Position numbers: made by a program. A stretch of DNA of 64,000 nt, from contig CAXTYC010000001.1 in assembly GCA_964248365.1 (NCBI GenBank), positions 96,001-160,000 of the forward strand, in the 5' to 3' direction. This DNA comes from an uncultured Chroococcidiopsis sp. (lineage in GTDB: Bacteria > Cyanobacteriota > Cyanobacteriia > Cyanobacteriales > Chroococcidiopsidaceae). Below are positions 21,001-27,000 of this stretch, one piece after another (within the stretch, counting starts at the first letter, position 1; every line of letters begins with the position of its first letter).

Positions 21001-24000
21001 GCTTAGAAAAGCTGTTGTTTAAGCATTTTTCCTGAGATTAGTATTTCCTAACGGGTTTTAAGTATTTGTAATTTCTACCCAATCAGAAGTTGTGGCGATC
21101 GCGCCTTCATCTGGTATAATTACCCTCCCCATAAAGCTCTTTGCTTCTACTATGTTGGGAAGAGTCATCCAATTGCGACAGAGGAAAAAGTTCCCACGAG
21201 GGCTTTAAGTGTGGAGGGTGTCCGGTTACTGATGAGTGTGTTGCGATTAGCTCCCCTTGTTCGCTCAATAGCACAAAAGCATATACCATTAGCATAAAGC
21301 TTCACACAATTGCTCCATCGGGCAAGTGGATATTGGCTGACCTAATTAGACTCAATAGAGTAGTGCTGGCAGTAGTAGCAGAAAATTTCAGACAAACAGT
21401 GCCTTTTTTGCAACAGTGTGATGAAAACAGGAAAATTTTTGGTATGATTTACAAAAATTAATATGGTTTAACTTGACAAATAATCACGCTGACAAGTTAA
21501 AGACGTAAGTTACTAGTGCCATATATCTAAGTGTCTGTGGAGAATCACTTGCAACAACAAAGAGTTTAGCCAATAACAGGCAATACAATAAAAATCGCCG
21601 CAAAACTCAAATGATACTAGGCGTTTGGCAGCCGCTTTTAGTGTGTCAAATTCAATTAAGGAATTCTCATGAAGCAACTTGTTAGAGCTGAGCGCTTGTG
21701 CTTGATTGGTCATATTGCGTCAAAAGCTTTTGGACTGGCAGGGTTGTTGCTAGTCGTTCCTCATGCTGATGTGATTTTAAATTTATTTGCGGCTGGGCAA
21801 ACCCTATTCCAGTGGAGTGTTGAAAAATCAATGGCTGGGGGTGGAGTGACTGATATCCTGTTTGGAACAGTAGCAGTATCCATATATGCCTACCGGACGT
21901 TGGGACTAAAACCCTGGCTAGGATTTATGCTGCCAGCTATGTTGATCTCGTTAGGAAGTGAATTATTGGGAACCAGTAGTGGCTTTCCATTTGGTGACTA
22001 TAGTTACCTGAGCGGCTTGGGATATAAAATTGCTGGGCTAGTACCTTTTACAATTCCCTTGTCGTGGTTTTATATGGGTTTGTCTTCCTACTTAATTTCT
22101 CGTGTAGCTTTAAATACGATTAAGCCCAACTGGTTGCGCCACATAGGAGCTATACTGCTGGGAGCGATGCTCTTTACTTCTTGGGATTTTGCCCTAGAGC
22201 CAGCTATGAGTCAGACAGCCTTTCCTTTTTGGTATTGGCATCAACCAGGAGCTTTCTTTGGCACACCGTATCAAAACTATGCTGGTTGGTTTGGTACTAG
22301 CGCCCTATTTATGAGTGTGGCAGCACTTTTGTGGGGCAATCTGCCACTGAAATTAGAGCGATCGCAACTAAGTATACCTCTAGTAGTTTATTTGAGTAAC
22401 ATTGCCTTCGCAGGTGGGATCAGCTTGGCTTCAGGATTCTGGCTACCCGTGTCTCTGGGCTTACTATTAGGCGTGGCTCCGATTTTAGTTTTGTGGTGGA
22501 TGGCTCCACCAAGTTCAGGCAACACCGTTGTCGAAGAAGCGAGTGGTATTGCCGAGCTTCCTGTCGAAGTTGCCTTAAAGTAAGCAAAGGCGATTAAAAC
22601 TGTGGCTGAATTGATATTAGCGAGTGCGTTCTCTCTAGGACTATTACTAATCCAATTACCAGCAACGGCGATTTTGCTATCGCGCTTGCTCAAAGGTCCT
22701 GGTCGTCATCCTCCGATTAAACCCGCCTCTCCCACTCCAGAACTGTTAGGTAGCGTTAGCGTTGTTGTTCCCACCTTGAATGAGGCACAGCGAATTAGCC
22801 CCTGCTTGGCTCTTTTAAGTCGGCAAAGCTATGAAGTTCGGGAAATCACCATCGTAGACAGCAATTCCCAAGATGGGACACCGGACTTGGTGAAAGCAGC
22901 AGGGCAGCAAGATCCCCGCTTTCGTGTAATTACAGATGATCCCCTACCACCTGGCTGGGTGGGGCGACCTTGGGCTTTGCATAACGGCTTTTTGCATAGC
23001 TCAGAACACAGTGAGTGGTTTCTGGGGATCGATGCAGATACCCAGCCACAGCTGGGGTTAGTTGCTGGTTTAGTCAAGACGGCTGAGGCTGAGGGATATG
23101 ATTTAGTGTCTCTCTCGCCTCAATTTATCCTCAAGTATCCTGGGGAGTGTTGGTTACAACCAGCACTGTTGATGACACTGCTGTATCGATTTGATAGTGC
23201 TGGTGTAGATACTCAGGTAGCAGAACGAGTAATGGCAAATGGGCAATGTTTTTTATGCCGACGCTCTGTTTTAGCTCATGTGGGTGGCTATAGCAGTGCT
23301 GCTCGTTCTTTCTGTGATGATGTCACTTTGGCTCGTAACATCGCCGCTAGTGGGTTCAAGGTAGGATTTTTGGATGGAGCTAAGGTACTAAAGGTACGAA
23401 TGTATGAGGGTGCATGGGAAACTTGGCAGGAATGGGGGCGAAGTCTCGACCTCAAAGATGCCTCTTCTTCTGCCCAACTGTGGGGCGATTTGTGGCTCCT
23501 ACTCTGTGTTCAAGCCCTCCCCCTCCCCATCCTACTCACCTACCTCTTTCTCCCTCAGCTTCCTCAGCCTCCTCAGCTCATCCTATTGGGACTAAATTCA
23601 TTCCTACTAGCGATCCGCTTTGCTCTACTGTTTGCGATCGCGCCGTCTTATGATCGTACTGGGGCGACAGGGGGCTGGTTGTTCTGGCTTTCCCCCCTAG
23701 CCGATTGTTTGGCAGTGCTACGGATTTTCTTGTCTGCTTTTCGTAAGCCTACTCAGTGGCGGGGTCGGAGTTATACTCAGGCAGGTTAAGGGCATCTGTC
23801 CTTTCTAGTTCCCAGAGAATTTGATTACCTTCGCGGCGCACTCTTGACACAATCCAATTGCGCCAGCGCCACTCATCACCCCGACTGGTGACGGCGCTGG
23901 CGTGGACATCCATCAAGTCAGCTAGTTCTGAACTGGTGATCAAATAACCTTTGGCGGCAATTTCGTCAGCAATGTGGAGAGTTTCGAGCAAATTGCGGAG

Positions 24001-27000
24001 TTGAGCCACCCTGATTTCGCGGGGTAATTCTTCGCTAGCAACAGGGGAGGTATTAGGCGCATCCATCATGGTTGTATTTGAGACAGGGTGGCTATTTGGT
24101 GACGACTTGTTAATTATCATATAGCTGCTGTCAAAATCAGCTATTTCTGCTACAGGAAGAGAATTGTTTGACGAGGGGGCTTGATCGCCAATTGTGGGTA
24201 GTTGCTGTTGTAAATGCGGGGTTTTACCGCTAGCAAAGGTACGGGCGATCGCGTCACAGCGTTCGTTACCAAAATTACCTGCATGACCCCGCACGTACTG
24301 CCACTTTATCTGTTTGCTGTTGAGTTGATCTAGAGTTTCCCAGAGTTCTTGGTTGAGGACTGGTTTACCTTCGGCAGTTTTCCAGCCTTTCTTTTTCCAT
24401 CCTTTCACCCATTTGGTAACGCCGTTGATTAGATATTGGCTATCGGTGTAAAGGGTGATGAATTCTTGCTGTCCAGACTCTGCTAAGAATTGTAGGGCAG
24501 CTATAGCTGCTTGCATCTCCATGCGGTTATTGGTGGTTTGGGCTGCGCTACCACCAATTTCGTAAGCTGAGCCGTCGCTGAAGTAGACAACGACACCCCA
24601 GCCGCCAGGACCTGGGTTGCCCGTACAGGCTCCGTCGGTGTATATGCTTTGAATTGTGCGGGGGATAGTCATGGTTAAGAGGAACGAACCGCAAAGACGC
24701 GAGCCTGGGGTTTAAACCCCAGGGAAACGCGCTCGTAAGAGGGGAAGAAATAATAAGGGTAGCATAGTTGAGGGGCGATTATCGAAGCGTGAGCGAAGTT
24801 ATCTTGGGAATTTAAAGAAGCGATCGCCGCCTAAAACACTATCAATTTCAGTTGATTGTGCCACTCCTTACTTGTGTTTAATGAAAATTAGACTTTGATG
24901 GGAGCTACAACATCAAAACCAGGCGCATTTATTATGATTGATTCTGGGCTGGAAAATCCAGCTTTTTTGCGCGCCTGTCGAATTTCAATAAATAAGTTTT
25001 TAAGATGTGATACTAGCCAACGCGGATCGTTACCAGCATGAAGGCAAATTTGCCATTGATAACAGTAATTTCGTTGTCCGACTTCAACAGATTTGACTGC
25101 ATCACACCCATAGAATAGATTAACGCTACGGCGAAAAAACTGTTGCCATTGGGCAATCCCATTCATGTAGCATGAATCTGGTAATTCTAATTTAGGTAAT
25201 TTTGATGGTGGAGCATTCAGAGGAGTTTGATGAATGCGGAAGTCAATTGTTTCTGTTCCTTTCAATGTGTTGCAAGTAATACAAAGAGTTTGCAAGTTTT
25301 CATGCGAATGATCCCCGCCGTGATATTTGGGCTTAACATGGTCAATTACTAATAGATTTTTCTTAATTTCTCCGCAACAAAGGCAACGAGATTTATCTCG
25401 TTTTTTAATCTCTGTTTTGACTTGCTCAGATGGCTCAAGTGGAGGAGTCGATTTTGATGTGAAAGTTGAGCCGTTAGATTCTGGAGTTCCGCGTTGACGT
25501 ATGATAGCTAAGAGCCTTTCAACACAAGCATTATACTGTGATTTAAATAACCCATAACTGTGGTAAATAATTTTCCAGTAGCGGTCTGACCGATTGAATT
25601 CTTCTATTAATTTATTATCTTCTTCCGAACGACTCAGATGAGAATCTATAAATCTTTGAGCTACATCATCAAGATTATGTTCTTGCCGTTCTTTAAAGTC
25701 AAACCAATCAGGTGATTCTCTGTCATTCTGTGCCATGTGACAGGTGACGTAAAACAAGTTTGTCAGCAAATCTCCACCTATATGCTGTCCAAAATTGGAA
25801 AAACTACCCTCCTGCAAACTTTCAACACGCTGCTGATGCTGTTTATCAAAGCTGATAGTTGGTTCAACAAATGTTTCTAGCTCTGATTCTTTACAATATT
25901 TAAGGCATTCAATATAATTCTCGTAACTTTCTTTTTCGTTTTCAAACACCATTACTAAACGTTGCACTATCTCAACATTTTCATTTCCCTCTGTCAGCGT
26001 TTCTAACTCAACTCGATACCAGCCTATCGGCATGAGTGTAAGAAATGGAACATCATTAATGTTGAATCCACTATCCATTTGACGGACTAACCGACGCACT
26101 AAATCAATAGAAATTAGTTGCATTGGTAGTGTTTCACCAACCTCACCATTACTATCGTTAATTCCTCCATCTTCTAACTCAAATTCAGCCCAGTTAATTA
26201 ATTGCTGCCAATTATCAATGAAAGAGACAATGTTAGCCTCATCTGTACCACCAAACTTAGAACCGCGTAAGGCTCTGCCAACCATTTGAGTTAGCAGAAT
26301 TTTACTGGTGGTTTGTCTGGTGAGGAAGACAGTATTGACATTAGGTACATCAGTGCCTTCAGTCAGCATCCGCACATTAATTAGTACATCTAACTGGTTG
26401 TTACGAAAAGCCTCTAAAGTTTTTGCATTTTCATCTTTATCTTGCTTATTTATGGCATCAGCACTGCCAGGGTATGCTTCGACGTGAGCGAACATTGTGC
26501 CTACTCTGATTCCTTTTTTCTGTTGTTCTAAAAATCCCCGCAACTGTTCGCATTGAAACCAGCGGTCTGCAAAGATAATTGTTTTTCCATAACGCTCTTT
26601 GTTATCAGCGTAGGTTTTAGCAATGAAGGCGTTACGCTCTTGATTTTCAGCTAATTTAGTGATAATTTCTTCTGGCAATTCTCGAAAGTCTCTCACCCAT
26701 TGTTGATACTTATACTCATCAAATTCAGGAGTAAAAGTTGTGTGAGATGTTTCAAAAATTGGCTTTGCCAGAATTCCATCAGCCATCAATTTTTCGGGAC
26801 TGATTTGGTAGAGAATTTCTTGTGGAAACAGCTTTTTTAACCAACCACGTTTATGCTTGTCTGTATAGGTGGGAGTAGCAGTTAGCCCTAACAAGTACAT
26901 TCCCGAAATGCGATCGCGCAGTTCCATAATGAATCTGCAATAACTAGGTGCTGGTGAGTGGTGCGCCTCATCAAATACAACAAAAAGTTTATTTCCTGCT

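What a model noticed while it worked through the whole genome (the two positions that open the first line are those of the whole stretch)
23749..24672. Unnamed, near-universal cyanobacterial 80-residue domain fused to RNase HI
rnhA (g00110, 307 aa) ends in a compact ~80-aa domain of no known family that is 70-88% identical across the order. It occurs fused to RNase HI, as the next gene, or free, which marks it as an overlooked RNase HI partner.
Evidence so far: No Pfam or NCBIfam match. Single copy in 21 of 21 order genomes (ORF of 280-350 aa in 13, ~100-160 aa in 8; call 157) and 21 of 25 class genomes. Of 13 class loci read: fused to RNase H in 7, directly downstream of rnhA in 2, elsewhere in 4. 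Model pLDDT 90: long helix, two short helices and a three-stranded sheet with conserved Trp residues.
(Added by a program. Inside this text positions count along the whole contig: contig position 96,001 is position 1 of the stretch shown here. "Call 12" and the like, gene names such as g00115 and contig names such as C1 are that model's own, and its searches are not shown. The text may have been shortened before it was handed on; [...] marks where a part breaks off. The agent that wrote the report below was given it as the finding of a first reader that could run no searches.)

Follow-up and report, generated by a model that had tools for sequence, protein, structure and literature searches.

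The report
Small protein nested inside cyanobacterial rnhA
The conserved tail of this cyanobacterial RNase HI gene was already described in 2015, but it appears to be a small helix-turn-helix-like protein in its own right that keeps its own promoter and start codon inside the enzyme gene and persists when the enzyme is replaced.

Summary
Pfreundt & Hess 2015 (PMC4649490) described this domain (Tery_4732+): over 70% conserved, fused to RNase HI or free, function unknown. Two earlier scan notes on the Trichodesmium twintron host gene led me there.

What I did not find in print:
(1) Fused genes keep the free gene's start. An in-frame Met precedes the domain in 107 of 107 and 19 of 20 fused genes, against 12% expected, behind a -10-like box. 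Published S. elongatus dRNA-seq has a TSS inside rnhA, 23 nt before that ATG, 3.3-fold stronger than rnhA's own and regulated differently.
(2) The domain stays 72-83% identical where RNase HI is a divergent or unrelated type.
(3) It belongs to a wider cyanobacterial family: the picocyanobacterial tail, plasmid HTH-coil proteins and 2OG-oxygenase fusions.

Best reading: a stand-alone 90-105-aa DNA-binding protein nested in rnhA, with a longer RNase HI-tethered isoform. It is not primarily an RNase HI partner. The small protein and its DNA binding are inferred, not shown.

The parts
23749..24672 (-). rnhA ORF, 307 aa: long isoform (RNase HI + linker + domain)
24238..24648 (-). RNase H catalytic domain, residues 9-145
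   Evidence: PF00075 E 8.6e-46; NF001236 182.8 bits against cut-off 160
24113..24121 (-). Candidate internal -10 element (overlapping TATGAT and GATAAT), 49-52 nt before the internal ATG
   Evidence: Inferred from conservation and the mapped S. elongatus TSS. The strict promoter scan found no site here.
24064..24069 (-). Internal in-frame ATGs (M202, M203): predicted start of the stand-alone protein
   Evidence: Met at this place in 107 of 107 and 19 of 20 fused genes
23749..24069 (-). Predicted nested short ORF, 106 aa from M202, equivalent to the free Tery_4732+ gene
   Evidence: inferred, no protein evidence for this genome
23794..24042 (-). Conserved domain (P0002, residues 211-293): long amphipathic helix, helix-turn-helix-like unit, three-stranded sheet with invariant Trp and Arg residues
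22602..23789 (+). Convergent neighbour: family-2 glycosyltransferase after a carotenoid-synthesis gene (cruF/cruG names recalled); its 3' end overlaps the rnhA 3' end by 41 nt. Context only.
   Evidence: similar genes flank free-domain genes in L044, L176, L179

Best explanation
The domain is the body of a small (about 90-105 aa) cyanobacterial protein with its own gene. In about a third of genomes the gene stands alone. In the rest it is nested in frame in the 3' third of rnhA and keeps its own promoter and ATG, so one locus gives two products: a stand-alone small protein from the internal transcript, and a longer RNase HI isoform carrying the same domain on a flexible linker. The small protein most likely binds DNA through a MerR-like/Xis/BldC-type helix-turn-helix plus wing and works as a chromosome-associated architectural or regulatory factor that does not need RNase HI. 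In the long isoform it would tether RNase HI to DNA. SHOWN: domain, distribution, retained Met, enriched -10 box, a published internal TSS in S. elongatus, retention after RNase HI replacement, homology to plasmid HTH-coil proteins. INFERRED: translation of the short form (about 0.8), nucleic-acid binding (about 0.6), the cellular role and the tethering.
Confidence: 0.5

Rival explanations
1. One reading: the domain is an RNase HI accessory, a substrate-binding or targeting module that works like the hybrid-binding domain (HBD), in cis when fused and in trans when free.
For: Fused in 50 of 76 genomes, including diverged picocyanobacterial forms that lack the internal Met. In three high-GC genomes that lack the domain, the same C-terminal position holds a Cauli_VI HBD above cut-off, a positional analogy.
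Against: Retained at 72-76% where the RNase H found is an unrelated type, three of them with their own HBD. It has a separate, differently regulated TSS. RNase HI fuses to many unrelated partners in this phylum. No Cauli_VI match and a different order of secondary structure.
Confidence: 0.2
2. The short protein is made but is a protein-binding adaptor. Its invariant Trp/Arg surface docks on a conserved machine (RNA polymerase, replisome or ribosome), and the fusions use it to bring RNase HI, a 2OG oxygenase or an HTH to that machine.
For: Very high conservation (26 invariant columns in 20 orthologues), acidic overall charge, reuse on several unrelated catalytic or binding domains, and top fold rows that are protein-interaction winged helices (PCI domains, YjbH).
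Against: The invariant residues cluster on the second HTH helix (S49, T52, R54) and the wing (R67, R69, R70, N73, Q74), where HTH proteins touch DNA (general knowledge). Most weak Pfam hits across 50 members are HTH or DNA-binding families.
Confidence: 0.2
3. The internal Met and -10 box are relics, or serve the downstream gene; fused genes make only the long protein.
For: The UTEX 2973 authors filed the TSS under the downstream gene. TSSs are dense there, one per 571 bp. A Shine-Dalgarno-like site was flagged in only 4 of 19 diverse loci.
Against: A relic Met would not survive in 107 of 107 and 19 of 20 otherwise freely diverging linkers. The downstream gene has its own TSSs at 0 and 16 nt. 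In this window the next gene is convergent, so there is no downstream gene to serve.
Confidence: 0.1

Closest known systems
Tery_4732+ family (Pfreundt & Hess 2015, Sci Rep 5:16829, PMC4649490; read parts 1-3 of 5 and the Fig. 2 legend passage, not the supplements)
   Same: It is this family: over 70% identical, cyanobacteria only, fused to RNase HI or free, function unknown; the free gene's mRNA was shown in Trichodesmium.
   Different: In the text I read there is no internal promoter or start in fused genes, no fold and no paralogues ('helix-turn-helix', 'DNA-binding' and 'plasmid' have 0 occurrences). It calls the picocyanobacterial extension non-homologous; searches show it is homologous. 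The Gloeobacter-type extension is indeed unrelated and matches an HBD (lineage name inferred).
MerR-like/Xis/BldC winged HTH proteins (BldC 6amk, Pukovnik Xis 4j2n, pSK1 Par DNA-binding domain 8csh; Pfam HTH_17)
   Same: Strand, helix-turn-helix, beta wing; 41-47 residues align at 2.4-3.0 A. One paralogue passes the HTH_17 cut-off over 21 residues.
RNase H1 hybrid-binding domain (Cauli_VI, PF01693)
   Same: Small domain on a flexible linker to RNase HI; it occupies the same C-terminal position in three genomes that lack this domain.
   Different: No sequence match, different secondary-structure order, and this domain is kept alongside HBD-bearing RNase H in three genomes.
In-frame nested isoforms from internal starts, such as cyanobacterial CcmM58/M35, CheA long/short, IF2 (all recalled, not checked here)
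   Same: One ORF gives a long catalytic form and a short C-terminal form.
   Different: Here the short form has its own promoter and exists as a fully separate gene in about a third of genomes.
Cyanobacterial plasmid HTH-coil proteins (e.g. on pSYSM, pNPUN04, pP742404; annotated hypothetical, MarR or MerR)
   Same: Their C-terminal domain is homologous (hhalign 98.7%); 24 plasmid records hold one.
   Different: About 20-33% identity, an extra N-terminal HTH-like domain, patchy and mobile; themselves uncharacterised.

Membership tests
Tery_4732+ family (Pfreundt & Hess 2015) | Over 70% identity among cyanobacterial homologues, with the conserved C-terminal motif | tested here: met
   70-92% to 73 non-picocyanobacterial orthologues; consensus agrees with the sequence printed in the paper
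Tery_4732+ family (Pfreundt & Hess 2015) | C-terminal to RNase HI after a linker, or free-standing | tested here: met
RNase HI (type 1 RNase H) | RNase H domain above curated cut-offs, with the acidic active-site motifs | tested here: met
   activity not assayed
MerR-like/Xis/BldC winged HTH | Significant sequence match to HTH_17 or MerR | tested here: inconclusive
   none for the query; one paralogue 28 bits against cut-off 27; 2 of 50 members weakly
MerR-like/Xis/BldC winged HTH | Structural match standing above background | tested here: inconclusive
MerR-like/Xis/BldC winged HTH | Binds DNA, often as head-to-tail oligomers on direct repeats | not testable with these tools
   needs EMSA, ChIP or a structure
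RNase H1 hybrid-binding domain (PF01693) | Cauli_VI profile match | tested here: not met
   no hit at E up to 1, while the same library detects HBDs in other cyanobacterial RNases H
Z-alpha domain | Z-alpha fold and profile | tested here: inconclusive
In-frame nested isoform gene | Conserved internal in-frame start codon | tested here: met
In-frame nested isoform gene | Transcript that can yield the short form | tested here: met
   published TSS in S. elongatus UTEX 2973 placed through proxy locus L202; not shown for this genome
In-frame nested isoform gene | Short protein detected | not testable with these tools
   no proteomic or Ribo-seq data found

The most novel reading that the evidence does not exclude
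Most crown cyanobacteria make an unannotated, highly conserved, light/dark-stable DNA-binding protein hidden inside rnhA. It is a domesticated relative of plasmid Par/Xis-like proteins that organises or marks the polyploid chromosome, and the long isoform uses it to steer RNase HI to the same sites and so control R-loop-primed replication.
Probability: 0.15. Interest if true: 0.8.

Novelty: new member of a known kind. Interest (0 to 1): 0.5.

Why it matters
The domain's function has been open since 2015. If fused rnhA genes also express it alone, a core cyanobacterial protein is missing from the annotation of about two thirds of the genomes sampled, including S. elongatus. rnhA knock-out and transposon data would then need re-reading, because insertions in the 5' two thirds would leave the small protein intact. 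The exact internal promoter and ATG make the question testable with two point mutations. It is also a caution for fusion-based inference: this fusion hides two separately expressed products.

Tried and rejected
HIP1-binding idea: rejected. Five loci with 0 HIP1 sites in 6.2 kb (L123, L133, L134, L141, L142) still carry an 85-86% identical domain.
Homodimer prediction: no verdict (score 0.02); no evidence either way.
Profile searches of PDB sequences: nothing meaningful (the Tri1 hit in 104 is two 20-residue pieces).
Foldseek on PDB and viral libraries: no hit at E 0.001.
ESM Atlas: unnamed cyanobacterial clusters, plus one 0.78 row with HTH families on under a third of members; no structure search was possible.
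Internal duplication between the paralogues' N- and C-terminal domains: not detected.
Phage copies: none with this query in viral contigs.
RNA runs: no RNA holder listed for L036, so no reads were laid.
A second TSS data set: the Fischerella candidate table lacks the gene; Nodularia supplements had no hit in the 3 files held; the PCC 7002 supplement gave one uninformative row, and one file was unreadable; the Nostoc 7120 paper is not held.
Conserved neighbours of free genes: varied; only the glycosyltransferase recurs (output partly cut).
Weak long-protein hits (P0169, P0171, P0177, P0189, P0190) look like repeat artefacts and were not used.
Rows dropped before counts: L206 and L222 had no anchor; one search set B anchored 18 of 20 loci.
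Searches behind 'not found in print': (open-licence PMC and bioRxiv only).
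Full report
OBSERVATION. Window 23749-24672 (-) encodes 307 aa: RNase H at residues 9-145, a low-complexity linker, and a domain at about 218-291 with no Pfam, NCBIfam or PHROG match above cut-off. It is single copy in the genome. In a phylum sample, 76 of 78 class genomes and 0 of 123 others match the single query; a profile gives 77 of 78. A family-balanced class sample finds some family member in 124 of 151 genomes, but three families score 0 of 5, 2 of 11 and 7 of 12, and the four genomes I read from the latter two hold only paralogues. AF2 gives pLDDT 93.9.

ALREADY PUBLISHED. A look-up of earlier scan notes returned two on the Trichodesmium twintron. Its host gene is this domain. 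Pfreundt & Hess 2015 (PMC4649490; parts 1-3 of 5 and passages read; supplements not seen) report over 70% identity, restriction to cyanobacteria, fusion to RNase HI in about half of cases, frequent mis-annotation as RNase H, a distinct RNase HI clade in free-gene genomes, and unknown function. A review of cyanobacterial RNases does not mention the domain in the passages read (PMC10989914). One transcriptome paper lists the gene as dust-regulated (PMC5776111, one passage). So the headline is known.

NOT TIED TO RNase HI. Combining, the 76 orthologues split into 50 fused, 1 tandem, 1 divergently adjacent, 3 free with a native-type RNase HI, 14 free with a divergent RNase HI (44-54%) and 7 free with none matched at 1e-10. 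Domain identity in the free classes is 72-83%, and in fusions it exceeds RNase H identity in 45 of 49 (medians 84 and 70). Five of the seven were checked: two carry an RVT_3-type RNase H with an ACT-like tail and three a type with its own N-terminal HBD (L152 judged by sequence, L151 by Pfam). RNase HI elsewhere in the class is fused to FolB, lies inside DnaX, or ends in an HBD. Fusion is therefore weak evidence of partnership. The HBD in the same position in three genomes lacking the domain is the best argument for a substrate-binding role of the fused form.

A NESTED GENE. All 107 distinct fused ORFs then held have a Met 15-22 codons before the conserved Arg; Met is 0.7% of the rest of the linker, so 12% would be expected. 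This set is Nostocales-heavy. 16 of 17 free genes have a Met at the matching place. In 20 fused genes picked across families, 19 have it; three picocyanobacterial fusions with 15-19-aa linkers do not, and two loci could not be anchored. TAnnAT lies 25-70 nt upstream in 15 of 17 diverse loci (1.8 expected from codon shuffles; 8 of 204 coding windows), but in only 50 of 107 of the first set (35 expected). It falls mainly in different reading frames in the two sets. I then looked for a TSS at the predicted place in S. elongatus UTEX 2973 (PMC6091082; abstract, passages and Table S1 rows seen). rnhA has a TSS 11 nt before its start (mean 321 reads; dark log2FC -2.49, high light +1.31). A second TSS lies 496 nt into the gene (mean 1074; dark -0.09, high light -0.77), filed by the authors under the next gene, which has its own TSSs at 0 and 16 nt. 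On locus L202, used as a proxy, the gene is 786 nt from its first ATG, as annotated for PCC 7942; both TSS positions fall on an A six bases after a -10-like hexamer, and the internal one is 23 nt before the internal ATG with AGGAG between, giving 88 aa. At one TSS per 571 bp over both strands, a chance hit in a 50-nt window is about 4% (my estimate). In the window the equivalents are ATGs at 24067-24069 and 24064-24066 and boxes at 24113-24121, predicting 106 aa; a strict promoter scan finds no site there. The short protein itself has not been detected.

WIDER FAMILY. Single-sequence searches already reach picocyanobacterial RNase HI tails (E 1.3e-8 and 3.1e-8 per genome) and three paralogues. 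Separate profiles align to the orthologue profile at 98.4% (picocyanobacterial), 98.7% (C-terminus of HTH-coil and helical-repeat proteins) and 97.4% (N-terminus of 2OG-Fe(II) oxygenases); the control against the paralogues' N-terminal domain gives 0.9%. These are pairwise values on members first picked by a shared profile. This corrects the 2015 statement on picocyanobacteria. The HTH-coil proteins occur on 24 cyanobacterial plasmid records, in two of three read near an integrase and a DUF5906 gene. Their layout recalls pSK1 Par and RacA (recalled; RacA E 0.47, not significant).

VERDICT. A real, published domain of unknown function. The best-supported addition is that it is a separately expressed small protein nested in rnhA (about 0.8), probably DNA-binding (about 0.6), whose main job does not depend on RNase HI; combined confidence 0.5. 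I found none of this in ten searches of open-licence literature; subscription papers and unseen supplements could hold it. Novelty: new member of a known kind (nested in-frame isoform; uncharacterised HTH-like family). Interest 0.5.

Noticed in passing
L163:1347-3410 (G182): A native-type RNase H domain sits inside dnaX (687 aa), between gamma/tau domain III and the C-terminal domain: a clamp-loader/RNase HI fusion. In L043 rnhA is divergent from a dnaX-like gene.
   Followed up: partly
L188:1015-1938, L189, L191 (G272, G249, G234): FolB (dihydroneopterin aldolase)-RNase HI fusion in three genomes of one genus; no orthologous domain follows the RNase H.
   Followed up: partly
L183-L185 (G240, G212, G225): RNase HI with a C-terminal hybrid-binding domain (Cauli_VI just above cut-off); this likely identifies the 'distinct 3' extension' left unexplained in 2015.
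   Followed up: yes
L151:1060-1899, L152:1060-1926: RVT_3-type RNase H fused to tandem ACT domains as the RNase HI found in two genomes.
   Followed up: partly
L060:4192-5244, L197-L200: The domain fused N-terminally to a 2OG-Fe(II) oxygenase, also in lineages lacking the orthologue; a candidate nucleic-acid-modifying enzyme.
   Followed up: partly
L032, L051, L053, L057-L070; plasmid records in L180-L182: Uncharacterised ~190-aa HTH-coil-domain proteins on cyanobacterial plasmids and islands, often near integrases and restriction or defence genes; possible single-protein partition or excision factors.
   Followed up: partly
window 24888-27467 (-): 859-aa superfamily-2 helicase with a C-terminal HNH domain just upstream of rnhA, probably a defence or restriction-type gene.
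   Followed up: no
window 23749-23789: The rnhA 3' end overlaps the convergent glycosyltransferase gene by 41 nt.
   Followed up: no
L034, L035, L056, L160: In picocyanobacteria-like genomes rnhA lies after the rplK-rplA-rplJ-rplL cluster; the domain is diverged with a shortened wing, or absent (G186).
   Followed up: partly
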